Below, piece by piece: positions 2,348 to 53,448 of a DNA stretch of 64,000 nt. The stretch is from Hormiphora californensis (Eukaryota; Animalia; Ctenophora): positions 744,001 through 808,000 of the forward strand of contig CM035360.1 in NCBI GenBank assembly GCA_020137815.1. The letters are read 5' to 3'. The notes below the pieces were generated by a model. The model saw only the letters and a program-made list of their open reading frames with translations, had not been told where the DNA came from and made no database searches. The translations under genes and the position numbers were made by a program. Numbering within the stretch: position 1 is the first letter of the stretch; every line of letters starts with the position of its first letter.

Positions 2348-4633
2348 GCTAGATTCTCGCGAACAGTAAAACTAAATTACTCAGTAATCGGATTGGGTCA
2401 ACCTCGGTTTTTGCAAATTCAATCGGTTGACTATTCAGCTGAGTCATGATAATAAAAAACGGAGTAAGATCGGCTAAGGGGGCGCATTGTATGGTGTGAA
2501 CAGTACCAGGTGCAAGCCGCTAGACAAAAGTGCAGTGGAGATCAGTAAAAATGGTGATCTATCTGCACTCTCTCTCTAACTGCAGGTTATAGTGAGTGAT
2601 CTATCTCTTATAACAGGGGCCGTGCACCAGATAACCAGATTAGCAACTCGGCATAAGCTGGTATGCGGGGGAGGAGGGGGGGGGGGGTATTTACCAATTG
2701 AATCGGAGAATATGTCTTTTCTTGAACAATAAAAAACTCATGTAAACCTAAAACCCACTGCATGCTGCACAAAGTTATAAAAAGCAGGTCCTAAGTCCTA
2801 ATATTTTACGAGTTGCAATGAGTAATGCGACGTAGGCCTAATGCATATATCAGCCATCAGGGTCAGGCTATTAATTTGTATCAAAGGCTCATGTAAGGTA
2901 AATTACTACAACACTGCAAATAGGGCTCATAATAATTAAAGTTGGTCAAGGAATAGTGCGGGTTTACACAGTATATCTGTAGATACCGTAGAAATAAGTA
3001 TCTTTAGCACGGTGCAATAAGGCACGCATGCCATGTGACCCCCCTGTATAATGCGACAACAACTGATCAAGAGATATACTAACATCTTGTAAACTCATCC
3101 CTTACTAAGTAAGTTACTTTATAACTAGAACATGATCAACCTGTACTTTAATATATCTAGCACTTGAACACCCTTTTCAGGTAGAAATCGGTATCTAGCG
3201 TGTACGCTGCAATATGTTCACTTACCCGGTCGCTTGTAGTGGGAAAATGGTAATGGAAAACGGAGACACGGTAAGAAGACGCGCAACCGTGGCCAATCAG
3301 TGCGCTAGTACGTGCTGACACATGCACTTTTTGCCGCGTGTTATGCAAAGTCTGCGTCTTATTACTGTAATTCCATGACGGTAATGCCACTACAAGCGGC
3401 AGCGTTAGGGAAAACGGAAGAGTTACCAAGTTGGGGAACACCTTAGAGGGGCACTATATATTTAACTGAAAGAGCTCCGAATACGATTACTGTTTCCCCA
3501 GGGACGATCGATCTACCGAACCCTCACAGAGCGCCCACACAACGAAATGGCGCCCCGCTAGAATTCTATACGAGATACGGGCTGAACAATGACTGAAACA
3601 TCAATTAGGGCGGTGATCCGTATCGGGTAAAGTGCGACTATTCGCCTGTTCAATGCGGGGCGGTTCACTTAAGATATAGTGGTGCAGTGGGGCAATATAT
3701 CAGTGGGCACTTAAACCTAAACCCCCCTCCATATACATGATATAAATATGAGGTCAGATTTAAAAGCATTTTATCTAAAAACTTAAAATTACTGAAAGGC
3801 TTTCCGTTCTATATAATATTTCCATTGAAGACTGGTTGTAAAAGCAGGATTTTAATAAGAGCGGCGATTGGAGCTCAAATAATCAGATAATCAGAGGGAG
3901 ATCCCCCCTTCAAATACCTCATGAGATGGTTGCTGCAGCTGCAGGATGAGGAGCCACGTTGCTATCAAGAGGGGGTGATCATCCTTTGTTTTCAGGCATC
4001 GGAGTATTTCCAGTCTCCCCCATCTCTCTTTCCAGTCCTCGCATCTCTCTCTCTATCTCTGAAAAACTCTCCCCGCCTCGTTTAATCGTGGAAATCTGTG
4101 CCGTCGTGCCCATTGTCATGCCCTAATAGAGGTGTGGGAGGGAGTCATCATGGGATGGAGGGGGGATTATCTGATTCAGGGTGATTGGCGCCAACTAGGG
4201 CTCACCACCCATTGACTATCTTTTTACTACGATTTAACCAGAGGACAATGGATTTGTCTTTTGTTAACGTAATGGAGATTGAAAGTAAGGTAAAACATGT
4301 GAAAACAGGAGATCATGAGGGGACGGAGCTAAAGAAAGAGAGGGCTGGGAGGTCTAATTAGGGGAGCCGGGCAGGGCAAATAACATATAGAATCGGGGGG
4401 ATATATGAAAAGAAATATCAGTTCTGCCGGAGACAAAAGGATTAAACGTGATTTAAAACATGGAATAATGTGGTCAAAAATATATACCTTCACTATCTTG
4501 TTAGATAGCTAGAGAGAGAGTTTGCTTTCACAATCATGATATATATGGGCTTTACAAAGCCAGTCATGTCCATAAATGGGTAATATAAAAACCGGCTATG
4601 ACCTTATATAATATGAGTATAAACCCGGTTATA

Positions 4634-7600
4634 TTATCTGTGCTCAAAGAGTTGTTTCTCGGAGTTATAAACAAAAGGTAAAATATTGGCTGGCCCCTTG
4701 AACTTGTTAAGGAAGAATTTGATCTGAGGCTCCACTCCCATACCCTCTAGATACACATCTAGCAGGAGACACAGCCGTGACACAACTTTAGTTAGCAGAT
4801 AGTTCTCGTTATCTACAACCAGTTCGGAGATGTGGACATTTAGTTCCTCTTCCATAGATCTGAGATTGTTGGGCTCCGATCCGGATATGTGGAGGGTGAT
4901 GAAGGGAGGGGTGTCAGGGTAGCGGAGAGGCAGGGCCAGGTACGCTTTACAAGTGGATTTGGCACGTTTAACCATGATCTAGGGGGGGGGGGGTTAGTGT
5001 TAAACTTGCCTAGTGATTAGAATGAGGATGAAAGATATGAGAATGAAAGATAAGAGAAAAAAGAGGCAAAAAGTGTTCAGTTCTGGCTCGTTTTTTTAGA
5101 AGATGGTATATAATACCTCATACAGTGCATCTCTATCAGATACATGCTTCTTCATTAGTTCAGGTAGATTTTCAATATCAGCTTCCTTCCACATTGACAA
5201 CTCTGTGAGAATTGTGGGTTGCGGTATCGCTCCTTCCTTCACCAGCTTGCTAGATGACAGATTCCTGCAGAAGAGTTGAGAATCATTGCACGTCTGGAGG
5301 GGGTACTCATGGTAAGAATTCTCACGTCTCTCTCTCTATAGGGCACGCGGTGCTAGATTTGCAATAGTAGATATACCAGACAAAATAGGAGCATCGAGGG
5401 GAGGGGGGCATTATTTGGAAGAAAGGAACAAGAACTTACTGTTCGATGGAAGATAGTGTCTGGCACTACCAGTATAACGTTTTAGTATACGGTGTACTAC
5501 CAGAATAATAATCAGTTTTAGTATATGCTGTGGAAATTCTACTCAGAAAAATAATAAGTACTTGAGTCGCCTTGCTCTACCCTGTCTCACCCTGTCACAG
5601 AATTGGCAGCTGACAGCTCACACAACACATGATGGTTAGTTACCTGAGCTGGTATTTGAGAGAAAGTCTGGCAAGACATCTCTTTTTAACAGCTGACAGG
5701 AACCCAGGAACAGTTTCCATGCTCAGTTTGATGTCCAGTCCGTCCCCTGATGTGTACCCTGTTATTCCAGCCAGCCGCTGGGCCCAAAGAAAGGGCCTGC
5801 CTAGTGAGGCTGGGATCTTGGATTTACTGGGGAGACTGTATTTGTTGAGGAGTGAGGCCATTTCAGGGTTTGGGCATTCGTCCCCGTAGTCCCCCTCCCA
5901 GAGGTCACATAGCAGCTCCTTGCTGGACATGTAGTCAGTTCCCTGGCAGATTTACCGGTTGTGATTTGTCTCTTAATACTCTGATAAATTACAGCGACAA
6001 TCATCTTAACTCACCACAGAGAATTTCTCCCTCCAAGGACTAGAAGTTGTAATCATAAGAGATATTCCGACAGTAACAATTCTTAGTTTCAGCAGATACG
6101 TGAACAAGACCTTAGCATGTACACCATCATCACAAGGAACAATAACCTGAGACAAAGACTTGTTAAATTATTTCAGAAAACAGTTTCTCACTCAATGAAA
6201 ATGTTTTATTTATCAGTACATTTATCTTTTTACGGGAAAATTTCACAAAACACCAACCTCGACTGTCAGGGGATGGGCTTTAAAAACTTTCTTTTTTCCA
6301 GGATCTTGAGCGGCACTTCGTCTCTTTGAGTGCTTTCCTTCATTGTCAATCGGTTCATCGATATCACTGAATAGAAACAGAGATGTTATACGGTTGAGAA
6401 ATAGGCTAATGAAACCGCGAAATTCACGGCTCCGAGTAAAAGTTTTGATGAAGGAGTAACTAAAAAATTCACTTCTACGAAAATCCAGAAAATGATCGCT
6501 CTTTCGCTTGACTTTATTTCTTTAACTATGCAATGCAAGAAATCGCTTCGGAGTGTATTGAAGTAGACTGCAGAAAGGTATCCGTGGAAACTGTCACAGC
6601 CTCACTGTGTGAAAATTGTTCAAGAGCGTTCGAAGACGATGTTCCAGATGAACCCAGGACTTTCAAGAACCGAGTTGATCGGATTATGAAATCCAATACG
6701 TTTCAAGCCATTATTGTTGTGCTTGTTGCGATTGATCTAATGCTGGTTACGTTCGAGCTCTGTGCAACTATGGATGTCGCCAAGCTAACCAGCAAAGACA
6801 ATCAGAAAAGAGTTATTTGCTGTATCCACATAGCAAGCTGCAGTATCCTTTTCCTGTTTATTTTGGAAATTATTGTTCGCCTGGTTATCAATCCCAAGGT
6901 ACTGTGGACAAAATGGGAGATATTTGATATTGTGGTAGTGCTGGCCTCGATCACGATCGACATTCTCCATATTTTCCCGAGCATGGTGACTGCAGCAGCC
7001 GAATTTATAATCGTTGGACGACTTGCTAGGGTCGCTCGGGTGGTCAACGGGACATTCAGTACGCTCAGAATTCGTAAAGGAGTGAAAATCCAGTTGCTCA
7101 AGAAAGAAAATGCGATGTTGAAAAAGAAAATTGAAGATCTTAAAAAGAGTTTGTGATTTATTTTGAAATACCTAGAATCGTTTGTCTTTGCTCTCTCAAT
7201 ATCCCCATTTATAGTTACCACAGCTCCCGACCCTAGGTACTCACTATATCCAACAACCTATCAAAGTAGAATTAAGTGTTTTAAAACATCTCTTTGGCAG
7301 ATGGCCTACTTCTAAAAAAGCACTTAAATAATATCACTTTGAAATGAGATTTTCCGAGAAACCTGACTATAAATGTTGTAAAGCTCAGGAGGGAGCCACG
7401 CAGACATCTCTGCCTGAGTGCGACGCTGTACCATTTTCAGACCAAGGAAGTCCTGCACCTGAAATGAATGAATGATATTTGTCGCCTAGAAACTAAAACT
7501 TGGGCATGAACCATTTTCTTTCTCTCTCCTGCTTCTAACTTTTTTCTCTCTCTCTCTCTCCCTCTCTGATCTCCCTCTCTCTCCTGCCGTGCCAAAAGCA

Positions 7601-8892
7601 CTATCCCTCCGTTACCTGAGTAGTTGAAGCAAGAAGTTCGTCTAATTGAGGAGGGAGAGAGCTCATATACTCCTCTAGTTTCTTAATCTCCGTCTGAAGA
7701 TCTTTCTTTTTCTTTTCCCATGTTTCTAGTTTACTCTTCATCCTGGCAGAGAGATGTGATTAGAGTTAACTGGAGAAAAACCCTGTATTCAGAAAGTCTG
7801 AGTGTATATTAACAAGTGAGCTATTCATCAAGGGGTATCCAGCGAGTTGTTTCAATACACATACCCCTTTCTCTGCTCCAGTTCCCATTCCAATCTCCGA
7901 ACCATTTGCTGATGTTTTGTCCCCCCAGGTTTCCCTCCCTCAGTGGTCATCCACTCCCCCTCAGGGATCAGACACAGCTCCTCATCTAGAGACCTGATAG
8001 GATAATGTTATGATTTGGTGTGTTAATTGACCTGAATCAACGTGGTGTGATATCCTGTATCACAAGTTAGGTCGTGCGCGTCGTGCTGACACTGAGTCCT
8101 TTCATCAGAACAAATGTGCGCGGCGTACGCTATCAACACACACTTTGGGATGTTGAGGGGGTGATCCCTGTATTGATCTCACGTGGTTCGAAGTTTGGTC
8201 AGGCATAGAAGACTCGGGATGTTACAAAGGTGAACAAATTTCAATAGCAAAACAGACGTTTCGGCGTAAAATAGCCCTCATCAGTGAGCACACTTTGGGA
8301 GCCTTTGATCTCAATATCGAGAGGCCTTGTTTCACAAAAGACTGTCCTCTCCGAACCGATCTTACAAGATAGTATGCTGTATGAACAAGACAAGGGTTTT
8401 CATACTACAACGTGACTGGTTTGGAGAGGGCAGTCTTTTGTGAAGAATACCTTACCCACTAAAACCAGACATGGCAAATATAGCTAATCGACTAACTTGA
8501 ATGTATGGCACTTCTGGATTTCTCGTTGCAGGTAGATTTCCTCAAATTGTAAATTCTTCAGCATCAAATCTTTGCTGTCTAGCTTCTTTTTTAACTGAAA
8601 GGAAGGCGAGAAAATTGTGATCAAATCTTGACTTGCAAGAACAACACAAATATAATCGACCCTAAATGAAGTTTCAGTTTTATCTCATAACCAATACCTG
8701 ATGTGTGTTGTCTCTAACCCTCTTGCACTGCTGCTGTGCTTTGCAGTTGTACTTCTTTAGTTGAGAGAAGAAAACCATACACTCCTCAAGAGCAGTGTCA
8801 CTCTTTCCGTCCTTCAGCAGTCCTAGAGCTCCAGATAGTTGGGCACAGATCTTCTTGTACAGACCACACGCGTCAACAGCCCCTGTTGACAT
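4634..8892 (-). CDS. THOC5: THO complex subunit 5 (FMIP), about 11 coding exons
   Basis: Manually spliced GT-AG exons: 8892-8698, 8594-8497, 7993-7865, 7742-7616, 7458-7363, 7257-7172, 6366-6258, 6146-6015, 5942-5644, 5249-5117, 4978-4634. Translation gives THOC5-like motifs LKNLQFEEIYLQREIQKCHTFKS, HQQMVRRLEWELEQRK, LPPELY, HPLTV, GDYGDECPNP, RPFLWAQRLAG, LCLLLDVYLE. Confidence 0.9.
6533..7156 (+). CDS. HVCN1: Voltage-gated proton channel Hv1-like, intronless, nested antisense in a THOC5 intron
   Basis: 207-aa ORF with four TM helices: S1 IVVLVAIDLMLVTFEL (D112/E119 equivalents), S2 ILFLFILEI (F150/E153), S3 WEIFDIVVVLASITIDI (D174/D185), S4 RLARVARVVNG. C-terminal coiled coil LKKENAMLKKKIEDLKK; no pore domain. 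Confidence 0.88.
   Translation: MQEIASECIEVDCRKVSVETVTASLCENCSRAFEDDVPDEPRTFKNRVDRIMKSNTFQAIIVVLVAIDLMLVTFELCATMDVAKLTSKDNQKRVICCIHIASCSILFLFILEIIVRLVINPKVLWTKWEIFDIVVVLASITIDILHIFPSMVTAAAEFIIVGRLARVARVVNGTFSTLRIRKGVKIQLLKKENAMLKKKIEDLKKSL
8151..8288 (-). mobile_element. Short insert with a degenerate Penelope-type hammerhead motif and 12-bp flanking direct repeat
   Basis: Minus strand reads CTGATGA-GGGC..GCC-GAAAC-GTCT-GTT; CACACTTTGGGA occurs at 8139-8150 and 8289-8300. Confidence 0.6.
8331..8445. mobile_element. Small inverted-repeat element (MITE-like)
   Basis: TTCACAAAAGACTGTCCTCTCCGAACC ... GGTTTGGAGAGGGCAGTCTTTTGTGAA. Confidence 0.5.
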
Positions 8893-9139
8893 GCTTCAAA
8901 CTAGGTCAAAATATACAAATATTAGCCAATATAATGAGCCTTTAGAATGACTCAGAGTTGATCTTGAAACAAATCACAATTCCAATTAATTAGGATCGGT
9001 TTAAGCAAAAATGTACAGATTAACACATTTCACAATAAAGATAGGGCGGTCCAAAAAATATAGATTTCATAAGATACATCCCACATACACAAAAACACAA
9101 TCTTGTCCCCCCCCCTAACTCCAAGTCAAACTCACGTCT

Positions 9140-12100
9140 CTACTCTCCAATCTGTGTTGCAGTAGTAAATTTGTGATAGTCCTTACTACTGACACTCAGT
9201 ACTGTCCCATTCCTAATTTCCCCACATATCCCTCTAACTAGGTTGGTATAGAATTGTTGCTCTCTAGGAAACTCAGTATACCGCTCAACGTGGTCCAAAC
9301 CGTCTTGCAGTTTGAGGGTTAGGGAATCATAGTTCGATCGGACAATCTCCATGACCTAGTGTGTGAGAGAGAGTTAGAACTAAACTGGCAAGGTTTGTTT
9401 CTATAGCAGATATATATTACCTCTTCTGGTTTGGGTGTTGAGATCTTGTTTGTCTTGGACCATGCCTCAATTTTAGGGGCAAAGTGGTTCACCAAGGCTC
9501 GAATATTGTGGAGACTAGACAATAGTTCCCGACACAAATCTTTATAATGCGACCCTGTGAAGAGGTAAGACCATTTTTATACGTGGTATGGGTGACTATA
9601 TGATTAATATTATGTGGTGCTAAACAATCGAGGGATATTAGATTCTCCTACCTCGGTTTGAGTATTGTAGTGCCGTTTCATTGAGTGCATCGAACACAGC
9701 GTACTGTCGTAGCACCTCATAATACAGTTCATCATAAGAATCAGGATTGGGTAGAAAGGTGTCTCCGTACATTACAAACATGTTAAATATCTTCCCGACC
9801 TGGGGGTAGACAGGTTGTGAGGGGGGCCCGTTGTGAGTCAAGGAAGGGAATAACAACGAATTTTATTTTCTGTGAGCCGTGCGGGTTCGTTAGATGAATA
9901 CGATACTTCCATAATAAAAGAATATCTTGAGAGACTAATAGTTGGTGAAATCTGGGTGATATAATATACCTAATTATCAATGATTTAATATAAGTATGTG
10001 TACCTGTGTATAATTATCAATGATGGCAGGTGGTCTCCATTCTTCATCTTTACTAAAGAATTGCTGTGGTATTGTGTGGTGTTATGTGTGTTATGTAGTG
10101 TGTGATAATTGAATGTGATCAATGATACTACAACTAGTTAAACTAGTTAGGGCGGGTTATAACTGCACAGGTGCTCCATGATGCTCAAATAAAAACTATG
10201 ACAGTATAATCTTCAGGTGCATAACAAACTATACATTCCTGGATAGCAGCTCCCAGAGATATACATATACTAGTTGTTGTTACATACCTGGATGTAGTTA
10301 TGTATAATCTCAGGTGAATCAAGTTCCAGAGAATTAGACCACTTCACAGCGCTGATCACCGAATTCCATAATCCATTCCAGGGATAGTTCAATCGGACTT
10401 TAGACTTCTTCTCATAGCATAGAACACGGTGAATTACTCGATAACATTTACTAAGGGAATCATTGGTTACAAATTAAGAAACCATCATGTAACCATCATC
10501 TTTCCTTGCAAAACAACTAGGTACCATTAAAAGTTCACTAATTGTACTGGTACTAGTGGTACTAAATATACTAATAGTACTAAAAGGTAGGATTTCCCCG
10601 GTAATTCCATGTAGTACCGACCTGTACAATTCTGTTGGGAAGGATTTAGTAAGGTTGGTGGTTAGGAATTCACTCATCAGATCCAATAGAGTGTATGCGA
10701 GGGACATTGGGGCAGTATCCCCTGTTGCGTCCTTACGGTGCCGCAACTTCTGTAATGTTTGAGAGTATTGAACTGGAAATTAATTAACTTGGTAATTTTA
10801 ATTGCATATCAATAAAGTTAATTCATGTAATTGTAATATTATCCAAATTCCACACATACCGTCCGATAAATGAAAACAGGGAACACCTGATTTTCATCAT
10901 GCATGAAGGCATTTGCATAGTTATCCTCAGTTATGCAAAGTAGAATATTGAAACACAACATGGCAGCAGTGTGGTTGGTTTTAACATCAGAGAAGACGAG
11001 GGAGGAGAAAGTGAGGAATGAAGAAAGCAGATTACTATGACTCTCGACTGATCCCTCCTGATCCTCCCCCTGGGCTGCTGACATCGTCTGAAACAGTGAC
11101 GTCATTGCTTTTCAATAGAGCTACGTAGATTTAATGGGACACCCTGTATAGTTACTATACAGGGTGTCCCATTAAATCTACGTAGTATACGCTAGAGATG
11201 AAGTTTAAACTTTATGAAACTCTGGCAATATTGGGGTACTGACTCCCGGGTAGGGATAAATACCTTCTCATAAAACTGTGAAAATACCTTCTCATAAAAC
11301 TGTGAGTACACACTTTCCAATAAAAACTGTGAAATGAAAGACTGTCTCTCATATACCTGAGTTAGGACGCTAGTAAAGGTCCTATTTAGATGAACTATCT
11401 CGTACAGACTCAGCAGCAGGGAGAGGTCCACAGGTGGTGGTCCATTCTCGTCTCCACTCGCCCAAAACTAGTTAATATACACTTGTTAGAAAAGAGGGAG
11501 TCACTAGCGTACTGGTTAATATACATTTGTTAGAAAAGAGGGAGTCACTAGTTCAAAACCACAAATCAGAAATACATCAATTGGATGTCTGCCTAGTGCC
11601 TAGATCGGACGGGGGAATTGAGGGGTGGAGGAGGGAGGGGGAACAGTAACTAGATCGGGGAGGAGGGTAGGGGGTCACACATACCCATGATGTTAAGTAT
11701 TCCGTGTAGGTTGCTTGGTTCGTGTGTTTTACCGCCAATACCGTGCTAAAAATAAAAAGTAATATTTATATTATAATGCTCAACAAAAAATTATTATTTT
11801 CCAACAAAAAACACTGCTACTGTTTATCTCTAACTCTCTCGTTAGCTTTACTTGCCTGGCTAGACTGTGTTTCGGGCGGGGAGGGTTAGAACATAGCAAA
11901 GCTTTACCTGTTATAGCGTGTAACATAGTTCAGTAGAATTTCACCGAACCCATTTAGTAACAACTCATCATCTGTACCAGATACTTTAATGTGATAGGGG
12001 TTGCTATACTGATAGAGGGGGAATAGGATTAGTAATGGGATTGCTATACTGAGAGAGGGGGAATAGGATTAGTAATGGGATTAGTAATAGAATACAGTAC

Positions 12101-13401
12101 ATTGGTGTAGTCAGTAAAGCGTGATAGCGTATAATGGTAAACCTCATTTCTACACACCTCATTTTTCCTGTAGTTCAGAAGTATAGCCAGGAGAGAGAGG
12201 GAGTGGGTACCAAGGGATGACCGGAGCGATGGGTTAACCAGAACTTTACAGAGACTATACCAAAGGGAATGTAGCATCAGGTACTCCACCTAGTGAGATT
12301 TGGGGAAGTTTAGAAGAGGAACATACTCCCAGTGGTAGTTTGTAATCTTGAATAATCAATAACAATCCGAGACTGACTGATTCAGTTGTTGTTGATTGCA
12401 AAAATCTTTCTATGTACATAGAGCGTATTTCATGTTTAAAACATACCATGGTGTTCTGTGACACGTTATCTGATGCACTACATAGTATCTTCAGGAATAC
12501 CAGGGCGTAATACTTCAGTTCCTGTATCTTGTTAGCTATCAGAATCTTGTGTATCTCCTCGATAAGTTGTGACATTGTCTGTTCCGCCTGATCAAACCCA
12601 ACGAGAACATCAACTGCTCTGAACCCCTCCCCCAGATCCTTCCTCCAGACACACTTCACTAGTGTAGATAGCGTCTAGTTGGGGGAATGGGAGGTGTTAT
12701 TGAAATAATGATTCTTAGCATTATTATATTAGATACACACATCAATTACACATGTGTACAATATATATGTAACAACTTGCAAGATTGAGAAGTTGCAACT
12801 TACCAACAGAATATTCAAAGATTTGATGCAATGATCCTCCCGGAGCCCTTGAACACACTTCTTGAACAGCACATTGATGGATCCCTGTAATAAGTCGGAC
12901 AATTAGTATCTGCTGAGTGCAAGTGATGAACATTATTCTAACTTACTTTACTGATAGTAATAAATATTATTTCACTTACTTTTAAGCTGATAAGATCGTT
13001 AGATGTTAGCTCACTGAAATGCTCCTCCAACACAGGAACATTAACTTTAATCAGGAACAATTTCTCCCATACACGGTCATCTTGCTCTTCTCCCTGATGT
13101 GTAATAGTGATTTTAGTGGCGATGTTATATAGTGATGTAGATAATAACTGATGTAACAGTAACGCGGATAATGGTTAAAACTATCATTGGGTACCAATCG
13201 AAATGAGATGTTTTGGTTCAAGCTCCAGCTGTACCACTATCGAGTACTTTCACCAGCATCTATTTACATATCAAGTACAGTATTACAATCTTGTTTATTA
13301 CCTCTCTCTATGCTCTATCTCTCTTTACTCTTGTTTACCTTAAGGATAGATTCGTAGATGATGCTAAACTCAGTTTTCAGCTGAGGTTTAGTGCTCCCCA
13401 T
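9140..13401 (-). CDS. ARMH3: Armadillo-like helical domain-containing protein 3 (C10orf76), multi-exon
   Basis: Exon translations [108 protein letters not shown]. ATG at 13401 inferred from the first exon MGSTKPQLKTEFSIIYESILK. Confidence 0.9.
11121..11186. repeat. Palindrome of TACAGGGTGTCCC-type MITE ends
   Basis: CTACGTAGATTTAATGGGACACCCTGTA...TACAGGGTGTCCCATTAAATCTACGTAG; related ends at 31460-31545. Confidence 0.6.
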
Positions 13402-15224: not shown

Positions 15225-17475
15225 ATGGAAGTCATTCAACGTGTCATCAGTGCGCTACGGAAAGACTGTCGTGAAAGAACAATCGAGGACTTCAACACCA
15301 TCTTCGAGTATTTTGTTCAGTTACAGGTCAGTCACATGATGTTGGAACTGCAGTCATACACATAGTTTGGGAACTGCAGGGAACAGTTCAATTACCTACA
15401 TAATATCTGTTTTCGGAGAACAGATTATTCTGAATAAAGAGATCTGAGCAAGAATTTAATTAATTAAAAACAAAGATATAAGATTTATACAATTTTCCCC
15501 AACAATGCTTCATAACCTTTTTAACCGATATATCCTCCTAGTTATCCCATTTTGCTGCGTTAACAAACAAAGAACTCCGGGAGACATGCAACCTGTCACG
15601 GTACATCGAATGTGATGAGAGTACAGTTCTCTTCAAGAGAAACACCCCAGCCAAGTGCTGGTATATCCTGGTCTCTGGATCTGTGTTGTATGGAAATCAG
15701 ATGTTTTGCAAGGGTACAACATTTGGTCATAGCAAACCACCACTTCCATACCTGAGGAAGGATGATTGTATATCGTTGGAGTATTGCCAGGTAAATAGCT
15801 TGGCAAGTCTCCAAGTATTAGTTCCATTGTGTAACGAATATGTATGATTTGGTAGTTATATTTCTTGGGATGAGGCCAAGACAAGTATTGTTTACATAGA
15901 GCTGCATTGTGTGAGGCTGAGCTAAATAAAGTGAGCTGTTGTTAAGATAAATAACAATCACACTCAAGTAGCTCCAACCTATCCATGTCTTCTTTCCTCC
16001 CCCTCCCTTGTCTTCTTGACCCCACATCATTTCAGATAATAGTGATAGACTACTCAGCCCAAGAGCTAGCCGGAGGTCACGCTCCCTCGTACCGTGGGAA
16101 CCTCCGCTCCTATCCGACCCGGTACAGCGGCAGTGTGGAGAGTTACAGCCTGCAATCTGGTGAAACATTCCCTGAACGAGAGAGTATCGATGGGAAATCA
16201 GCATCTTCCATTGACTCGTATCCCGATTTGTTGGGACTAACTGAGGGAGGGGTGGATAGTGACGATGAATCGGATGAGTTGTCACAACTGAGCGCTCAAA
16301 CTATTGATCCGCTGAGGGATAGTTTGGGGAAGAAGCCCAGTGAGAGGACTGAAACTGACGTACAGGTGAGAGAAAGAAAGAAGAGTAGATGATACTATGC
16401 AATGTATAAATTCGGAGAGGCACATTTTGTTATTCAGGAAGGTCGGTTTTGGAATAATGTTAGATTAGTTAAACCGGTTAAACCATACAAATCTGAATAT
16501 TTTTCCGAATTGGGGGATTTGGTTTGATCTAGGTAACCATTCATTGTAGTTGTCTGTCTGTCTGTCTGTCTGTCTGCCTGTCTGTCATGTCTACTGATGG
16601 TTTCCCCCACATCTCAACTGTATCTCCCAGGTCACTATCTCTACCACTATCTTTATCTTCCTTTCTCCCCCTCTCTCTATCTCTCTTCCCTCACTTTTTC
16701 TCTCCTCTTCTCTCTTTCTTTGTTTCTGTTTCTTACCCTTATTCTTCATCGAATGTTCCTGATTTGGACTTGGTTTGATCTAGTTTACCATGTCTTGAAG
16801 TTCCTGATGCGTCTACTATAGTCATTACTATGTGGTTTCTCAGTCTCTCTAGGAGTCTATTGCGGACATTGCTAGTTTCCTGTAGTTAAGACAACACTCT
16901 TAAGCTAGTACTTGCTCTGGTACTATTCTTGTTACTCACAGTCTTTCGTATGTTCTCCTACCCTTTCATATCTTCCCCAGTGTATGATGTTGATTATCAT
17001 CGCTGTCACCTAGTTCTATCTGCGTGGATTGATGTTTTTGCTGTTCCGCATAAGTATCGGATGATCAGATTAGCTCTATGTGGTAGCTCGATGCTTAATG
17101 CGGTGTTGTCTTTGCTTCTCTTCAGTTCGCTATCTGTTTCTCCTCTGCTCTCTCTTCTCTCTAGTTAAATCTCTCTACTTACAATCTCTCCTTGATCCTC
17201 TCGTTCATTTGCCTTCCTGGTCTATGATATCTTCTAGTCTCCTCTCGTCATCTTCTGAATCTGTGGTGATTCTCAGTATGCTCTTGCTGTCATCAGTCTC
17301 TTCTCTCTTTCTTCTCATCTCATTCCCTCTTTCTCAGCGTCATCTCTCTTCGCATCTCTCTCTCTCTTCTCTCCACGCTCTCTCCGTGCACAGGTCCCGG
17401 ACCGACTCTGCATCGAGCCATGTGTCTCTCGTCAGAATGAGGTGCTCGTCTCTCTGCTCATCTCTCCAGTCTTCT

Positions 17476-17559
<84 letters not shown>

Positions 17560-20500
17560 CTTCTCTGCGTATTTCCCTGTGTTAAATATTTCTTCCTTGC
17601 TACCTTCGCGTACAAATGCAACTACTCATAAATTGTACTTGCACGTTCTAGTTGTATATTTATCTCCCTCTCTTCCTCGGTACTACTCAAGTTCATCTTG
17701 ACACACTACTTGTTACTTTTGGTTTTAGTATCACGGATAGTAAACTTGGGTTACTTATTTCTATCCCTATTGTTCATTGTTGTTGTGTACTGATACCTAC
17801 ATTTTCCCATTCCCAAAAGCATTATATTTCACAATGATTCGTGCTATTGTATCTATGGCATCTTCCCTGACAGGCGGCCTCCTCAGCCTTCTCTACTCCT
17901 TTGCTAAGGTGTGATAGGAAGGGAGGGTTAACATGGTTATGTGATAGGAAAGGTTGTGTGATAGGAAGGGAGGGTTAACATGGTTATGTGATAGGAAAGG
18001 TTGTGTGATAGGAAGGGAGGGTTCATGGTTATGTGATAGGAAAGGTTGTGTGATAGAAAGGAAGGGTTGTGAATAATGGTCGAGGAACAAAGATTTTGAT
18101 GGGGAGGGAGATGTAGCAGAGACTAAAACATTTTAGGAGGAGTGGAGAGGTAGGGACTAAAGCATTTTATGTGGGGACTAAAATATATTTTAGCCCCCAC
18201 TCCTATAAAATAAGGGGGTGGTGGCCGCAAAGTGGACGAGGGAAATGTACCCTGCATGCGAACTGCACACATGAGAAACACACAGCGGGGGATTGAGGGA
18301 TTAGTGGAGGGTATAGTAAGAGTCTATACTATAGACTGTAATAGAGCATGATGAAATAGCGAGTTCTCTGTTATGTACCCCATAAAATAGTGTGACGCAA
18401 ATCCAATACCACTTGAAATAATCTCTCTCTGTGTTACTCATGTCAAATTATGGGGGCGGGGCGATGTGAGTACCCCCTCCTACGTACTCGAGAATGAAAG
18501 GGTACTGGAAAGCTCGAGAGAATCATGGGAGAGGTAAAGGGTTGTGTTAGTACAGTCGGACCCCGATTTAGTAGTAGGTTATCATGTAGCTCTGTCTGTA
18601 GTTCTGTGAATGTTCGATGTCGCTCTGTGAGGGTTCAGTAGATCAAGTACAGGGGGACCCCCAAGTAAAGGGTTGTGAATTATTAAAAAACACCCCATTC
18701 CCCCCAGACGATTTGTAACGAGGTGTCACACCTCCCTGCCCTTCTGAAACTGCCCGTCCCGGTGAGGAAGGAGTTGTGTCAACGCATGCTATACAAGGTA
18801 ACCTTTCTGGGGTGTGCTATACAAGGTAACATTTCTGGGGTGTGTATCAAGCAGGATTCAGGAACCGACCGAAACAAGTAAACAACCAATCAGAACTCGT
18901 TATTTAGGTCACGTGACTGGTTATCAGCCAATTCCCTGATTCGGTCGGTTCCTGGTATCAAGTTTAGTATACAATTGACCCAACCGGCAACTTTCCGCCC
19001 CGTATCCGGGTACCCGAACCTCCCTCTCTCTACTCCCCTGTCATCAATCTCCCATCTGGATAGCGGAACCTAATTCCACTCCTAAATTCCCTACCACCAA
19101 ATTCCCAACACAACCTCCCAGTCCCATACGGCCTACCACCACCTTCCATCCCCACTCTCCACTCCTTTGCACCTCCCTGCCCCCTCTCCATCACCACTCT
19201 ATCACCACTCTACTCACTTCCTCTCAGGTGTACAAAGACCCTGGGGTAATGTTGGTGGGCCACTCCCCACTCCCCTACCACAAACCTCTCAACCCCTACC
19301 TGGGTAACCGAACCTCCCTCTACACAACTCTCGTCTCCCAGGTGTACAAAGATCCAGGGGTAATGTTGGTGGGCCACTCCCCACTCCCGGTCCCCTACCA
19401 CAAACCGCCCTAGTCCCTCTACACAATACAACTCACTCTCTCCTCCCCCCTGCAGGTGTACAAAGACCCAGGGGTAATGTTGGTGGGCCACTCCCCACTC
19501 CCCTGCCACAAACCTCTCAACCCCTACCCGGGTAACCAAACCTCCCTCTACACAACTCTCCTCCCCCCTGCAGGTGTACAAAGATCCCGGGGTAATGTTG
19601 GTGGGTCACTCCCCACTCCCCTACCACAAACCTCCCTAGTCCCTCTACACAATACAACTCACACTGCACTCCCCCCTCCCACTTCCCAGGTGTACAAAGA
19701 TCCAGGGGTGATGTTGGTGGGCCACGGGAAGGAACTCCACTCTTGGCAGGTCCTCCTAAACGGTGTGTTAGAAGTTAGAGAGGAGGGTCTCCCTCCAAAG
19801 TTGCTACATGTTGGAGAGAGCTTTGGAATGCCCGCTGCTACACAGGTACTGATACCAGTTGTATACCAGATATTAAAAGCAATTAAATAATCAAATTTAG
19901 TTACACGGTACAGTCGGACCCCGATTTACCGGGATGCTCGGGGGAAAGGGTTTTTTTAGTTACACGGTAGTTAGTTTTACTGTGTGGTTTACTGATCAAT
20001 AATATTTGGGGAATTTGTGGAACCCAGACTGATATCGGGACACCGTATGGCGTGCATACATGTGCGTGTGTATAATAAGAGTTTACCTCTCTCATTTTAG
20101 TAATTATTAAATGTATCCATCTCTTGATCTAGGTGTTGCGACAACAAGGTGATATTTTAACCCGCTCTCCTGATTGTCATGTCCTCTCTATACCGCGATC
20201 TGAGTTCCTGCAAATCATCAAGTTAGTAATATTTTACCTCTCTTGCACTGTGAGGGAGACAAGCAACATTTGAAACATTGTTCTGACGCTTCTTGTCTAT
20301 TATCTCCCAATATATCATCCAATTCTACAGTAAGAGTGAGCTAAACACTAAACGGATAAAGAACGAAGAGGGGAAGGTTATAGTGGTGAAGGAATTGAAG
20401 GCGAGTGTAACGGGTTGTCAGCCTGGAGATGTAATTACTGCTGCAGACCCACAATCTCTAATTGAACATCTGAAGGAAAATACGAAGAGTGTTGACCCTG

Positions 20501-23500
20501 AGTACACCGAGGTAATAACTGTTGTGTGTTTGTTTGTTTAATTGTTTGTCTGTTTGTTTGTTTGTTTGTTTGTTTGTTTGTTTGTTTGTTTGTTTGTTTG
20601 TTTGTTTGTTTGTTTGTATGATTGTTTGTTTGTTTGTTTGTTTGTTTTTTGTTTATTTGTTTGTTTGTTTGTTTGTTTGTTTGTTTGTTTGTTTGTTTGT
20701 TTGTTTGTTTGTTTGTTTGTTTGTTTGTTTGTTTGTTTGTTTGTTTGTTTGTTTGTTTATTTGTTTGTTTGTTTGTTTGTTTGTTTGTTTGTTTGTTCTC
20801 TAGCAGGTAGTGTGAAATGTGTCGGTAATCGAATGTAGCAGTTCTAAATTGTAACGAGATACTCATGCCGTATCTGGACTCTAGATTTTAGAACTGAGTG
20901 GGAGATGGAGAAACTGATTTCCGTAGAAATTGTTTTCTAAAATCTCACTCTACTGCTGCACTAAAATAATCACCAATCACTTAACTGTCTTGTTTTCTCG
21001 CCCACTCCGAAAACTCCCAATTATCTTTTTTTAGGATTTTCTATTGACTTATCGGATATTCATTCCCGACGTGACCCTCCTAACAAAACCTCTTCTTCAC
21101 TGGTTCGAGGACAGTCAATACAGGTTCGTAACACACTTAATTAGCAATTATCTGTTTGATGTTATAATTTTGAATAATTTTCTTAACTCCCAAATATCTT
21201 CAGATATAAGATTCTAAGCATCGTCAATGCCTGGGTTTCTTCTCATTTTACTGATTTTGACTACAACACCACGTAAGAGTACACTATATCTTGCTGTGAA
21301 CAATGTGAATTAACCCCCTAAATTGTAATCCATGTTCCCCTTATTTTGGCTGTACAGTCGGACCCCGATTTACCGGGCCCCGATTTACCGGAACCCCGAT
21401 TTACCGGGAGGATAAACTTCCCCCGATATAAGAAATTGACGATATTTTGCCCCGATATACCGGGCACCCCGATTTACCGGGCAAACCCCTTTCCCCCGAG
21501 CATCCCGGTAAATCGGGGTCCGACTGTATTAACATTTCACAAGTTGGCCTATTCAGTACCATGCTTAGTGAACTGACTAGTACTCGGTGTCTACGTGTCT
21601 CTATATATGCGTTACAACACGCCTTTGTTTACACTTGACACTGTATTGTGAGGAGCTATAAACATATGATCTCTCAATATAGAGTAGAGAGATAGAATGT
21701 GTCTGATAGAAACAGAGACAGCTAAAAATGTCTCACGTGCCTAAATATTGAATGACCATACCCACCACACCAAACGGCAAACAACCCTCTCCCCTGGCAA
21801 CTTAGTTACCCCTCCCTTGCCGGCACAAAGCCCTATTTTGTAACCCCCCTCTCCAACAAACACCCCTCTCCCCTGGCAACTTAGTTAGCCCTCCCCCTGG
21901 CAACTTAGTTACCCCTCCCTTGCCGGCACAAAGCCCTATTTTGTAACCCCCCTCTCCAACAAACACCCCTCTCCCCTGGCAACTTAGTTAGCCCTCCCCC
22001 TGGCAACTTAGTTACCCCTCCGTTGCCGGCACAAAGCCCTATTTCGTAACCCCCCTCCAACAAACACCCCTCTAGTTTCTAGAGGAATTAGAATCCCAAA
22101 TGAGAACCCCCCTCATATCATATCAAACAAACACCCCTCTGCCCTGTCACCAGGTTATGGAAATTTCTAGAGGAATTAGAATCCCAAATGAGAACCCCCC
22201 TCATATCATATCAAACAAACATCCCTCTGTCACCAGGTTATGGAAGTTTCTAGAGGAATTAGAATCCCAAATGAGAACATGGAACTTGAAACAGGAGCTC
22301 TCCCAGTTCCGACAGCTTTGCAGTAGTAAAACGTTACGAAGGACAATTACCATCGACCGGGAAAAGAGCGATCCTATACCCCTGCTAGTTGGTGGTGCCC
22401 GATTAGGGTAAGAAATTATATATGTTAACTTTTGAGTATTAATTGGACGTTAATTAGTTGGTTGGACATTGTCAAAATGAACCATGTTTGTACAGTCTCT
22501 TACACGACACGCGCCGCCACACAGCACACTCTTGTGTGGAATCCGGAAGTAGGCCCTTAATAGGAGGGGGACCCTCCCCGTCTCTGGGTGGGGAGAGGAA
22601 GAGGAGGGGGAGAGGGAGGGGAGGGGGAGAGAGCGAGAGAGAATTGAAGTATGCTAGTTCTTAAACAGACAGTGTACACTAACAATACATTTTGTGTTTA
22701 AAACGACATCCGATGCTATTAAAAGTGTAGTAGTCGACATGTCTGTTTGCCTCGCCAACTTTGTTTAGACAAAGAATCTTGGCCAGGTTTTTCAACTCCA
22801 CAGACGTGCAAACATTCACAATGAACTGTGTGTTTGATTATAATATATCGAGAATGGGGAGAGTGGGTCAACCCGGTCGTGATTATCATTAGTATTGCAT
22901 AATATTCACACATACTGACTATTATAATAGCATGCGAAGAATATAACTTGTTAGGGTATCTCGGTCCTCGGTGAAAGGTCATTATTCAGATTATTCACAC
23001 ACTGACTTGTGATATTATTCAGCATATTCAGAATAAAGAGATCTGAGCAAGAATTAAATAGGGAAGAAAATCGAAAAATACTGGGTTCGACCGGGAATTG
23101 AACCAGGGACCTCCAGAGAGACGCGCTCGATGCTCTACCACTGAGCTACCGAACCCCTGTACAGATCGCATTTCTTCACACTATATTCAAGCACATGCCC
23201 TTAGCTAGACACCATTTGATAGAGGAAGTAATCTCTCCTTGACCGAGATCTGCCCGTGTGTGTGTGAGATTCCCCTATATAACCGTTGTACGGAGGGCGT
23301 GTGTGTGTGTTGATCACCAGAAGGAGATATCAAAATTACTTCCTTTATTCAGCATAACAATGATAATAGTTGTGACGCATGGGTTCCGCATTGTTACACA
23401 ATAGAAAATGAGAAAACAAACGAACGAACAAACTTAGTGAATTATGTGTTTACTGAACGAAACAGTAAAAATAGTTGTTGCACTGTTCAACTCGCGTGAT

Positions 23501-23746
23501 TCCCCTGGGATTTGAGCAGCTCTCTCTGCAAAAGTGCACTTGTTTGCTTTCCAACTGTAAACTGTCTCTCCACATTCGCTCATATCTCACTGCAATCATG
23601 GTCCTTTCTGAAAACTTGCCAGAGCTGCATGTTTTCCCTGCCTCGGATCAGAGACATCACTCTCAGCACGGCTTCAGAATTAATATCTCCAGTACCTTCT
23701 CCAAGCATGTATCGATTTCTCTCTCTACAATATTGCATCTCTCTCC

Positions 23747-23839
<93 letters not shown>

Positions 23840-26686
23840 ATCCTCTCCTCTCTCTCTCTCTCTCTCTCTCCCTCTATCTCTCTATATCGACCCGCTCAAT
23901 CATCTCAAGTTCTTACACACAAACTATAATATAGGCTCTGGTGTCTGGGGACGATCTTCCGAAGCCCCCCTCTCCTCCCTCTCTTCAGAAGAATTAAATT
24001 TTATCTGGGATCACTATTATTTTTATTCTACATCAAGTTATATATGTAACAATCAGGCTTCGGCAGAATATTCAATTCCTAAATTATCAGTTGGGATTGA
24101 GAGAAGCTCATTCCACGGAATATATGGATCCGTTATGTTTTGTTAGGACGAAATACAGCATTATCTATATGACTCTGATTGTTAATCTCTCCCCCGACTG
24201 TTATTTATTAATCCCCCCTCTCTAGGTGTGGTATATTCGTCACGAAGGTCATGTCAGGCAGTTCATTTGATAGTTCCCTACTACGATCATGTGACCAGCT
24301 CCTGCAGTTCAACGACACGAAACTGGACCAATTTACGGAGGATCGGATAGCCAAGATGCTAGCACAAAGTAATTAATTAGTTAGAGGAAAGTTATTAGTT
24401 GATTATTCAATTAATTAAATTATTAGGATATAAGGCATTAATTCCATCCAAATAAGGCACTAACACGATGTTTCTTCCAAATAAGGCACTAAATTCTCGC
24501 TGGTAGTCCGTAGTAACAAGATGGGTATGAAGGAGGCAATGCAGAGATCAGATGACCTGCTACGGAACCGACAACTTGGCACCCAACAACGGCACTATGT
24601 AATTACTGTTATGTAATTACTAATTAATTGCCAATTACTACGTCATAATCAATATATTTTAGAGAATCAATTTATTTAGGGGAACGATTATCATTCTGCC
24701 TCTTTGTTAATGTTTTCATATAATGAAGGGGGCCTAATTAAAATTCCATCAGTACCCTCATTTTGGACTTTTTAGAACTAGACCCCCAAATTAACTGAAT
24801 ATATGTTTTCATAGAAGTAATTAAATAATTAATTAATTAATTCATTTAATGATATGTTCCCTTTTACACGCAGAGTGCAGATAACATCAGTAAGAACAAG
24901 GCGTTCTCTGGATTTATTGATTCTCTCAAATACAAGAAGACGCCCAAGCGGGTACATACCAGATTGATATCAAAATGATTGATTACTATAATTATTGTTA
25001 ATCATGATTATTTAATGGTTCATCAATATATTATTGTTCTAATGCCCAAATATGGTGTTTTGTTGTAATGCCCATATATGGTGTTTTCACCGGTTTTCAG
25101 GGTAAGCCAGATCTGAATGATGTTGGCACGATGAATGCTTCTCTCCCTCTGCCGGGTGGGTCAAACGTATTTACCCGGGGGGGGTATTTCCCCCTTGGTT
25201 TTTTAAAGAAGCGTCATTCACCTTCCCCCTTTGTATCCCCGCAAGGGAAAGATTTTATTATGTTAAAGGGGGGCATGTCCCCCACTAAAAGATGATTAAA
25301 AAACAGGATTCAACCTGCTGAACCCATGTCTCATGCTTGATAAACCTTGATCTTGGTAACTATATCGTATTCCTAATCCCTATAATTCCTCAGGGTACAA
25401 AGAAAAGAGGGGTTTTTAAGTTTTACAGAGGGATTTTACACCTTAAAAAAAGCATGTTCAGAGGGAAACAGCACGGGTTGGTTACCCGGGCTTTAACGGT
25501 ATTTGGGGGTAAATTTAAAAGGGGGGAATTGGTACTAATTAGTTTCATCCCAAAAGTCCTAATTGTTTCCCCATTTTAAAGTTGAGACTGGAAAAACCCC
25601 CCCCACTTTCCCTCTGCGAAGTGTGCTGTCCCCTTTCGGGTGCAGGGGCGACAGGGAAAAGTTGAGTTCAAACAAAGAACTTGAGGGAAAAAGACGGTTG
25701 TGTTCGGGATTATCTGAAGGTAACCCGGAGGAGGACAGCCGGGGGCCCCTTTAGCTCTCGCACAGGAGTTAAAGGGGGGAAAGGGGAGAAAGAGAAGAGG
25801 AGAGAAGAAAGGAGAGGAGAGAGAGGAGAGAGGAGAAGCGAGAGAGCGAGAAAGAAGAGAGACGAGAAAGAGAGAGAGAAGAGGAGAAGGGGGGAGAGAG
25901 GGAAAAAGAGAGAGAGAAAGGGGGGAAAAAGAGAGAAGAGGGGGAAGAAAAGGAGAAGAGGGAGAGAGGGGAGAAAAAAAGCCGAAAAGGGGGAAAACCC
26001 CCCCGCTACCCTTTTTCCCCCTCTCTCCCCTTTCGTTCTCTCTCCCCCCTTCCCTTTTTTTTCCCTCTCTTCTCTCTCTCTCCTTCTCTTTTGGGAAATG
26101 CTGCGTGATAAGTACAAAAATCAAATTTGGACCCGAGGAGGTTTTTCCCCCAGCTGACCATCAAAAAGTTTCAGTATCTTCAAAAAAGGGAGGGCAGGTG
26201 GGGGGGGGGGAAAATTAAAAAAAGGGGGATTTGGGAAAGGGGTTATATCCCCTTTTGAATGGCGGGGGAGAGAAAGAAGAATATAAGGGTGTGGTATAAC
26301 ACATGTCATGTCACATGTACTACACGTGTGTTTGAGTCCCATATATGGAAAGGGGGACGGGGGTCAAACGTCATACTACCAAATTAGGTACTCGTTCCCT
26401 CGGTGTGCCCTCGATGTGACCTGTCATCACTTGCACCATGCTATTATAGATGTTTTTCACACACATATATTCCAGATACACTGTCTATAATACTTTCAAT
26501 GGGGCTGGGCTGGTAGAGGGAAAGAGAGGAAGAGAGAGAAAGAGGGAGAGAGAGAGAGAGACAGAGGTGATATCGAGAGCAAGACCAAGCGATGGAAAGG
26601 GAGAGAGAGGAAGAGAGAGGAAGAGAGATAGAGATAGAGAGAGAAAGAGAGAGAGATAGAGAGGGGACAGAGGGAGAGAGAAAGAA

Positions 26687-26747
<61 letters not shown>

Positions 26748-27954: not shown

Positions 27955-27985
<31 letters not shown>

Positions 27986-30210: not shown

Positions 30211-30256
<46 letters not shown>

Positions 30257-30682
30257 CTTCCTCTCTCTCTCTCTCTCTCTTCTCTCTCCATGGCACGACA
30301 TCTTATCTTGTGTGACAGTTGCAAAAAGGTTACCATTCAAATGTGATAGTCCTGGATCATCACGCGACATTAAAGACTACTGCTGGTCACATGACATATC
30401 ACGTGGTTTAATCATACAAATTTCTCTCTCAATTCTCTATTCTCCCTCTCACTATATTCTCTCTTTATCCTCTACCATTGTGAAATAGCTGTGACGTTCA
30501 TTTGGAATTATCATTATTGGCCTGAGAGTGTATCAGGAGTGTCGACTGTCTTACAAAAAGCAATAATATCAGAAGTGCAGACCCTACCACGTGTGGAAAT
30601 GTCTTTTCTACTTTTCTAAATTCTAATGTTCCAAGTAGTTGTCAGAAACTCCAAATAGTGGACAAGACAATAATATAAAGCT

Positions 30683-30745
<63 letters not shown>

Positions 30746-53154: not shown

Positions 53155-53448
53155 TAGACTCATTTTATATTTTATATTTAATTTATTAATGTTTTTATCA
53201 TTGTAAGTGTCTACACGTATTTATATTCAGGCCGATGTTGGCCGCCACCCCCCCCCTTCTTTTTTTTTTTTCTCGTTTTTCTTTCCCGTGTGTTTTTTAC
53301 ACTCCCCTCGCGTGCACCGTCAGAGGGGCCTGCAACCAGTAGTGTATGCCAATGGTTGGCAGTCAATCAAAATATTTTGCTAATTTAAGTAACAATTCCG
53401 CTGTAGCCTTTCAAGGAAAATGACAAAAAATCCCCTGTAAAAATCACC

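What the first reader, a model, noticed from the sequence alone, without database searches (positions are those of the whole stretch)
7010..7050. Natural loss of the signature S4 Trp in an Hv1 channel (RLARVAR instead of RxWRxxR)
Seen: the codon at 7025-7027 is GCT (Ala), three substitutions from TGG, so it is unlikely to be a sequencing error. The selectivity Asp, the S2 Phe/Glu, the S3 Asps, three S4 Args and the following Asn are all intact. Established: RxWRxxR is the Hv signature, and engineered human W207 substitutions greatly speed gating and weaken pH-dependent gating and selectivity at alkaline pH. Inference: a naturally fast or altered proton channel, notable if the animal lives at seawater pH near 8.
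Basis: partly seen in the sequence, partly recalled or inferred. Interest (0 to 1): 0.72.

Follow-up and report, generated by a model that had tools for sequence, protein, structure and literature searches.

The report
Comb-jelly proton channel lacking signature tryptophan
A gene that likely comes from a comb jelly encodes a protein of the voltage-gated proton channel type with alanine where nearly all such channels have tryptophan; the same swap makes the engineered human channel open about 100 times faster, so this one is predicted, but not yet measured, to be a naturally fast channel that is less tied to pH.

Summary
An intronless ORF (6533-7156, +, 207 aa) is Hv1-like and has GCT (Ala165) at the S4 Trp site. 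DNA runs of three studies besides the possible source show the same codon. An 88% identical relative has Val. Trp stands in 146 of 148 alignable relatives. The S1 Asp, three Args, Asn, gasket residues and a short coiled coil are kept, and pN/pS is 0.14-0.26, so the gene is not decaying. Trees put it in a fast-evolving clade beside Bolinopsis (comb jelly) Hv1. The clade's other members keep Trp, though one branch lost the third Arg. It also has Thr at the His168 site. Best reading (0.5): a proton channel without the Trp-Arg latch, fast and weakly pH-coupled. This is inferred from engineered mutants and was not measured. It fails the published Hv signature. A Trp-free Hv-like protein (Limacina) is in print, untested, and lacks the first Arg too. 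Whether this genome also has a normal Hv1 is unknown. The scan's notes show no earlier find of this.

The parts
6533..7156 (+). Intronless ORF, 207 aa, Hv1-like voltage-sensor-only protein (P0001)
   Evidence: model with four helices and a long S4-coiled-coil helix, pLDDT 82
7025..7027 (+). GCT, Ala165, at the site of the signature Trp (human W207)
   Evidence: Val in P0002
7019..7048 (+). S4 motif: Arg163, Arg166, Arg169 and Asn172 (human R205, R208, R211, N214) intact
6734..6736 (+). Asp68 in S1, the selectivity-filter position (human D112)
6857..6868 (+). Phe109 and Glu112 in S2 (human F150, E153); with Val65, Val135, Val136 the hydrophobic gasket is complete
   Evidence: the role of the gasket residues V109/V177/V178 is recalled
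6908..6910 (+). Thr126 at the human His168 position (inner pH-sensing, 'throttle' site)
   Evidence: effect of H168T from PMC5987877; His is kept in only 72 of 146 relatives, so this is common
6917..6961 (+). S3 acids Glu129, Asp132, Asp143 (human E171, D174, D185)
7088..7153 (+). Predicted short coiled coil, three heptads (I186, L189, N193, L196, I200, L203, L207)
   Evidence: heptad spacing, helix in model; dimer not tested
6367..7171 (-). 805-nt GT..AG intron of THOC5 that holds the whole Hv-like ORF on the opposite strand
   Evidence: splice sites and reading frame; Pfam FmiP_Thoc5 exons on both sides; a contig of X20 joins 7361 to 6338 with 115 letters between, 112 expected
7172..7257 (-). 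86-nt THOC5 exon, 15 nt beyond the Hv-like stop codon; the Hv-like 3' UTR would overlap it in antisense
   Evidence: frame-keeping GT/AG borders; no Pfam hit on its own
7363..7458 (-). THOC5 exon upstream of it
   Evidence: Pfam PF09766 E 0.0013; borders read; X20 piece 7361-7398

Best explanation
This is an intact gene, kept by purifying selection, of a likely comb jelly for a voltage-sensor-only protein descended from Hv proton channels, and it likely still works as a voltage-gated proton channel, predicted to open fast because it lacks the S4 tryptophan. Shown: the ORF, the Ala codon, the kept Asp/Arg/Asn/gasket residues, the tree position, pN/pS well under 1. Inferred: depolarisation moves S4 outward and protons cross at the Asp68-Arg166 filter as in Hv1; with Ala at 165 the Trp-Arg169 contact that holds the closed state is gone, so opening would take milliseconds, the threshold would likely shift, and the response to outer pH would be flat from about pH 7 up, which includes seawater. 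Thr at the His168 site may also weaken inner pH sensing. It would then behave more like a plain voltage-gated proton path than an acid-extrusion valve. It likely dimerises by its short coiled coil. The Trp was likely lost once, on the branch to this gene and P0002, after which the site accepted small residues (Ala, Val).
For: Hv1 is the best PDB match by far: profile E 3e-36 (3WKV) and 2e-31 (5OQK) against 9e-7 for Ci-VSP and 8e-7 for TPTE2. Atlas features of P0002: Hv1 clusters 0.94, TMEM266 0.84. All charge and gasket positions checked are kept in P0001, and none of them is among the P0001/P0002 differences. pN/pS 0.26 (11.5 nonsynonymous, 13.5 synonymous, p 0.002) against X11 and 0.14 (6.5 and 14.5, p 5e-6) against X12. 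RNA-library contigs of a close relative cover the ORF in 3 runs of 2 studies. With the Trp column removed, the gene falls in a 9-row clade (96/96) joined to Bolinopsis Hv1 (95/90); 9 of these 11 rows have Trp; the join recurs without long rows (95/87). Trp mutants of human, dinoflagellate and coccolithophore Hv all still conduct protons and open fast (PMC4621752); all 19 substitutions left-shift monomeric human Hv1, small ones most (PMC10875263).
Against: No current was measured. Effects depend on the backbone: the voltage shift is opposite in kHv1, and species without His168 can have normal pHi sensing. The branch to this gene is long (1.14 changes per column; about 30-35% identity to its nearest Trp-bearing kin), so compensating changes are possible. 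The sister branch P0006/P0177 lost the third Arg, which suggests looser constraint on S4 in this clade. It fails the Trp criterion used to call Hv genes. The fold search does not single out Hv1: no Foldseek hit at E<=0.001, and Ci-VSP leads by VIA Z (12.6, rmsd 2.5, 120 aligned; 3WKV 11.3, rmsd 3.0, 139 aligned). The trees hold no VSP or TMEM266 outgroup. RNA contigs are shallow (depth about 3-5), unstranded, chosen for holding this stretch, and could be DNA or THOC5 pre-mRNA.
Confidence: 0.5

Rival explanations
1. Compensated ordinary channel: it conducts protons and gates like a normal Hv1, because other changes on its long branch took over the job of the Trp.
For: Long branch and many other substitutions; extra aromatic residues near the inner end of S3 (Trp125, Trp128); the site differs between P0001 and P0002, as if it no longer matters; converse swaps between species often fail to transfer gating.
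Against: No tested residue reproduced the slowing by Trp in three species; no compensating residue was identified here.
Confidence: 0.22
2. Not a proton-selective channel any more: a voltage sensor, leaky or non-selective pore, or partner subunit that modifies a normal Hv1 through the coiled coil.
For: It belongs to a clade that is sister to, not the same as, the normal-looking Bolinopsis Hv1, so it may be a spare paralogue; another branch lost the third Arg; Trp mutants lose selectivity above pHo 8; the review lists Hv-derived proteins that likely stopped being channels.
Against: Those examples lost the Asp or Args as well, while here every filter, gasket and counter-charge residue checked is kept. 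A normal Hv1 in this genome was not shown.
Confidence: 0.2
3. A decaying retrocopy in a THOC5 intron, with the Trp loss as early damage.
For: Intronless and nested in an intron; no AATAAA/ATTAAA in 7157-7700; an out-of-frame ATG five bases upstream of the start.
Against: pN/pS 0.14-0.26; full-length ORF in P0002, with the differences mostly conservative or in the N-terminus; no frameshift or stop among the listed differences in the runs laid.
Confidence: 0.05

Closest known systems
Hv1 / HVCN1 voltage-gated proton channels (human Hv1 5OQK; mouse chimera 3WKV; Bolinopsis microptera Hv1-like XP_063674256)
   Same: S1-S4 only, no pore domain, short coiled coil; D112, F150, E153, E171, D174, D185, three S4 Args, N214 and H140 equivalents; 30% identity to the Bolinopsis protein, E 3e-24; same starred clade.
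   Different: Ala (Val in P0002) instead of the signature Trp; Thr at His168; no His at the second outer zinc position in the alignment to human Hv1; intronless and nested in THOC5.
Engineered W207A human Hv1 (also kHv1 W176A and EhHv1 W278X; PMC4621752, PMC10875263)
   Same: The identical substitution at the identical position, with Asp and three Args kept.
   Different: Natural, fixed across at least two organism labels and under selection, in a backbone only about 30% like human Hv1; properties unmeasured.
'Tryptophan-free' Hv-like protein of Limacina antarctica (PMC10377628, section 2.2 and supplement)
   Same: S1 Asp kept, S4 Trp missing, function untested at the time of the review.
   Different: By my reading of the printed sequence it is a long mollusc protein whose S4 lacks the first Arg too; the protein here keeps all three Args and the Asn and has canonical size.
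Unnamed sister proteins P0003-P0007, P0177 ('NGT' clade)
   Same: One clade (96/96; 89/91); shared Glu/Asp before S4 and Asn-Gly-Thr after it.
   Different: All keep Trp; P0006, P0158 and P0177 lack the third Arg instead.
Voltage-sensing phosphatases (Ci-VSP, TPTE2) and TMEM266
   Same: Voltage-sensor fold; Ci-VSP also has no S4 Trp.
   Different: No phosphatase or long tail here; S1 Asp present; far weaker sequence match.

Membership tests
Hv voltage-gated proton channels | Four-helix voltage sensor (S1-S4) with no pore domain | tested here: met
   207-aa ORF ends after the S4 helix; model helices 55-81, 88-119, 127-145, 149-206, pLDDT 82
Hv voltage-gated proton channels | Acidic selectivity residue in S1 (D112) | tested here: met
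   Asp68 aligns with D112
Hv voltage-gated proton channels | Trp in the S4 signature RxWRxxR | tested here: not met
   Ala165, GCT; criterion (c) of PMC10911540. So I file it as Hv-descended and Hv-like, not as a signature-bearing Hv1
Hv voltage-gated proton channels | Three S4 Args and following Asn | tested here: met
   R163, R166, R169, N172
Hv voltage-gated proton channels | Gasket and counter-charges (V109, F150, V177, V178, E153, E171, D174, D185) | tested here: met
Hv voltage-gated proton channels | Descent from within the Hv family | tested here: met
   Starred clade with Bolinopsis Hv1; profile E 3e-36 to Hv1 versus 9e-7 to Ci-VSP. Trees held Hv-like rows only, unrooted
Hv voltage-gated proton channels | C-terminal coiled coil that makes a dimer | tested here: inconclusive
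   Three heptads and a continuous helix; dimer not tested
Hv voltage-gated proton channels | Outer zinc site (H140 with H193) | tested here: inconclusive
   His99 matches H140; no His at the H193 column, one His (146) nearby; the roles of these residues are recalled
Hv voltage-gated proton channels | Proton-selective, voltage- and pH-gradient-gated current | not testable with these tools
   Needs patch clamp
Voltage-sensing phosphatases (VSP/TPTE) | PTEN-like phosphatase and C2 domains after S4 | tested here: not met
   Stop codon at 7154-7156, same end in P0002; next exon-like DNA belongs to THOC5 on the other strand
TMEM266 (HVRP1) | No S1 Asp, Trp in S4, long C-terminal tail (recalled) | tested here: not met
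   Asp68 present, no Trp, short tail; Atlas score 0.84 versus 0.94 for Hv1; no TMEM266 sequence was aligned here
Mollusc Hv3 channels | xPWRxxR motif, very long S1-S2 loop and tails | tested here: not met
   First Arg present, S1-S2 loop of about 6 residues; definition

The most novel reading that the evidence does not exclude
A fully equipped natural proton channel with both known pH-tuning residues gone (Trp207 and His168 sites): a millisecond-fast, nearly pH-uncoupled proton conductance that could carry inward current in excitable comb-jelly cells at seawater pH. It would belong to an unrecognised second comb-jelly Hv family that is remodelling the S4 signature (Trp lost on one branch, third Arg on another), and show that the 'perfectly conserved' Trp is partly a product of search rules that require it.
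Probability: 0.25. Interest if true: 0.75.

Novelty: new variant of a known kind. Interest (0 to 1): 0.5.

Why it matters
Papers call this Trp perfectly or entirely conserved, ask openly whether slowing the gate is why it is kept, and use it as a filter when they look for Hv genes, so Trp-free members drop out of surveys. A selected, natural Trp-to-Ala gene with everything else intact, an Ala/Val pair and Trp-bearing sister proteins give a ready natural experiment on what the Trp is for and whether proton selectivity and pH-gradient gating can be rebuilt without it. The published count is one Hv gene each in two comb-jelly genomes, so a second clade would also be new for that group. The weight is limited: one residue, no physiology, and a published, less clean precedent.

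Tried and rejected
Sequencing error: rejected. Neutral decay: rejected. One shared origin with the Varroa-type Trp-less protein P0143: rejected, AU p 0.016, two changes on the tree. No whole genome is held, so the search for a normal Hv1 paralogue could not be run; a look-up of the scan's notes with the Bolinopsis protein found nothing, which proves nothing. Two scans of metagenome contigs gave no locus. The word-based protein searches were weak: 1 hit and 6 hits. A search with a THOC5 exon, meant to name the lineage and test synteny, found nothing. Pfam gave no Ion_trans hit for P0001, though sisters score just over the cut-off. FastTree on 156 rows left the clade unsupported and placed Bolinopsis Hv1 elsewhere; the IQ-TREE runs on 40 and 27 hand-picked rows support it. 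Fold searches show only a general voltage-sensor fold. X20, a guessed RNA run whose THOC5 and ARMH3 pieces are only about 80-95% alike, did not cover the Hv-like ORF; THOC5 exons were not covered in X12, X13, X16; neither gap is evidence. No complex was predicted, since a coiled-coil dimer would pass by likeness. Paper searches found no listing that describes a comb-jelly Hv sequence or a tested natural Trp-free Hv; the library lacks most subscription papers. The review's supplement has no Pleurobrachia, Mnemiopsis, Hormiphora, Beroe or 'ctenophor' entry; six R-L-x-R motif look-ups found no Trp-less S4 other than Ci-VSP (line breaks can hide hits; I read 1 of 8 parts). The Hv tree figure of preprint 10.1101/120998 could not be seen and may include comb-jelly sequences.

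Full report
Observation. The stretch 7010-7048 lies in one ORF, 6533-7156 on the + strand, 207 aa, with no intron. Codon 7025-7027 is GCT, Ala165, between Arg163 and Arg166. phmmer against the PDB gives the Hv1 chimera 3WKV (E 9e-19) and human Hv1 (E 4e-15) first and aligns Ala165 on the Hv1 Trp.

It is not an error. Four DNA runs were laid on 6400-7300. Leaving out X3 (same sample as the possible source), X5, X7 and X11 come from three studies and two organism labels. X5 and X7 have contigs over the codon with no other letter; the X11 contig has 30 other letters, all listed, none in the codon. The only close protein in the large collection, P0002 (88% identical, unnamed, ENA), has Val at the site.

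It is rare. A profile of P0001 and P0002 against 1.84 billion cluster representatives gave 266 hits at E<=0.001, of which the best 150 were listed. Two are cut before the site. Of the other 148, 146 have Trp. The exceptions are P0002 and P0143, whose cluster holds a Varroa Hv-like protein that lost the second Arg too. Other signature positions vary more: the third Arg is kept in 135 of 148 and the S1 Asp in 136 of 142. The 116 weaker hits were not seen.

Family and lineage. A profile of the 14 nearest sequences scores Hv1 at E 3e-36 and 2e-31, sodium channels at 3e-14 and weaker, Ci-VSP and TPTE2 at about 1e-6. Atlas features of P0002 point to Hv1 clusters (0.94) before TMEM266 (0.84). Trees were built with the Trp column removed. 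IQ-TREE on 40 rows, picked by hand from 156, puts P0001 and P0002 in a 9-row clade (96/96) that joins P0008/P0159 (95/90); P0159 is annotated Bolinopsis microptera Hv1-like. A 27-row repeat without most long rows keeps the join (95/87; inner clade 89/91). FastTree on all 156 rows did not support it. Two earlier AI notes on this genome call it a comb jelly, which agrees. Of the 11 rows in the clade, 9 have Trp, so one loss on the branch to P0001/P0002 is the simplest reading; the Varroa-type loss is separate (AU p 0.016). P0006, P0158 and P0177 keep Trp but lack the third Arg, so S4 is unusually free in this clade. Its other members are unnamed, and no genome is held, so I cannot say whether this is the animal's only Hv or a second copy. 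A table in PMC4685580 counts one Hv gene each in Pleurobrachia and Mnemiopsis (one passage seen).

Selection and expression. Against X11, 25 differences in the ORF give 13.5 synonymous and 11.5 nonsynonymous steps, pN/pS 0.26, p 0.002 (one polymorphic site left out; the printed label for residue 97 is wrong there and right). Against X12, 21 of 24 differences were listed and give 14.5 and 6.5, pN/pS 0.14, p 5e-6. The two comparisons share many sites and are not independent; no multiple-hit correction was made. Contigs from three metatranscriptome runs of two studies cover parts of the ORF; X12 spans the S4 codon with 16 of its 17 other letters listed, none in the codon; X13 also holds a spliced joint of the neighbouring ARMH3 gene. 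These contigs are shallow, unstranded and were found by this very stretch, so expression is likely, not shown.

Surroundings. The gene is nested. Pfam finds THOC5 pieces in order on the - strand at 8487-8684, 7855-8007, 7327-7485 and 5643-5951. Frame-keeping GT..AG borders give exons 7458-7363 and 7257-7172 and an 805-nt intron 7171-6367 that holds the whole ORF, whose stop lies 15 nt from the donor. A contig of X20 joins 7361 to 6338 with 115 letters between; the exon model expects 112, one codon fewer. An intronless gene inside an intron suggests a retrocopy; this is inference. Sister proteins called whole on long contigs, two with upstream extensions typical of plain ORF calling (P0153, P0177), hint that the clade is intronless.

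Mechanism. Models from 14 and 91 sequences give four helices and a long S4-coiled-coil helix (pLDDT 66 and 82). Fold searches show a voltage-sensor fold but do not separate Hv1 from VSP or sodium-channel sensors. Function therefore rests on residues and on engineered mutants. PMC4621752 (abstract, results part 2 of 3 and section 17 read): W207A/S/F opens about 100-fold faster, closes 29-fold faster, activates 18 mV more negatively, saturates outer pH sensing from pH 7 and loses selectivity at pHo 8-10; a Trp-Arg211 cation-pi latch is proposed; dinoflagellate and coccolithophore channels speed up too, but the dinoflagellate voltage shift is opposite. PMC10875263 (abstract and passages): all substitutions left-shift, size matters, and W207A halves the pH shift (21 against 38 mV). 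PMC5987877 (passages): H168T speeds opening 10-fold and weakens inner pH sensing, yet three unicellular species without that His sense pH normally. P0001 has Thr there. I commit to a fast, weakly pH-coupled proton channel at 0.5, a compensated ordinary channel at 0.22, a non-selective or non-conducting sensor or partner subunit at 0.2, and a decaying copy at 0.05. That the channel meets seawater pH is an assumption: its cell type and membrane are unknown.

Comparison with what is known. It works most likely like Hv1 and descends from Hv channels, but it fails one defining feature, the Trp that PMC10911540 lists among its criteria (passages), so I do not file it as a signature Hv1. It is not a VSP, TMEM266 or mollusc Hv3. 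PMC10377628 (passages, section 2.2, supplement part 3 of 8 and two look-ups) already names Trp-less Hv-like proteins in Limacina, Saccoglossus and Oikopleura and calls the Limacina one untested; the latter two lack the Asp or an Arg, and by my reading the Limacina S4 lacks the first Arg. Nine paper searches showed no tested natural Trp-free Hv and no description of this gene; for most hits I saw listings only. 10.1101/120998 and PMC6259924 (passages) added nothing. The scan's notes hold no similar find.

Verdict. Real, fixed, selected and rare; a new variant of a known kind. It is the cleanest natural Trp loss I could find and makes an open question directly testable, but it is one residue in a fast-evolving clade with no physiology and a partial precedent. 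Interest 0.5.

Noticed in passing
window 4634-8895 (-) and 6533-7156 (+): The Hv-like gene fills 624 of the 805 nt of a THOC5 intron on the opposite strand; its 3' UTR and promoter must lie close to or over THOC5 exons in antisense.
   Followed up: yes
proteins P0006, P0158, P0177: Sister Hv-like proteins keep Trp and Asp but have Val or Ala in place of the third S4 Arg: a second natural change of the signature in the same clade.
   Followed up: partly
window 6492-6566 (+): Out-of-frame ATGs at 6492 and 6528 open a short frame (24 or 12 codons) that overlaps the start at 6533 and could damp translation; an X13 RNA contig includes 6520-6532.
   Followed up: no
protein P0143 (cluster with Varroa jacobsoni XP_022700333): A mite Hv-like copy has lost both the Trp and the second Arg, independently of this gene.
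   Followed up: partly
proteins P0041, P0063, P0072, P0075, P0096, P0124, P0139: Seven Hv-like representatives carry Glu in place of the third S4 Arg, a charge reversal in the sensor; they group together in the quick tree.
   Followed up: no
proteins P0090 (Symsagittifera roscoffensis), P0106: Hv-like proteins with Tyr at the S1 Asp column and Asn at the third Arg, likely not proton channels.
   Followed up: no
window about 9140-12700 (-) and 15500-31400 (+): Neighbours are an ARMH3-like gene and exons with cNMP-binding and RasGEF matches, likely one RAPGEF-type gene.
   Followed up: no
window 50600-52400: Three near-identical blocks, each with long short-unit repeats, follow one another; possibly a tandem duplication or an assembly repeat.
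   Followed up: no
window 52705-56728 (+): A 149-codon frame that looks like a retroelement fragment (recalled likeness) is followed by long frames of 790 and 333 codons rich in Pro, Ser, Thr and Ala, with Cys/His clusters in the first.
   Followed up: no
run X20 on window 4500-9700: This run carries the same species label as X1 but matches the window at only about 80-95%, so the label likely covers a different species.
   Followed up: no
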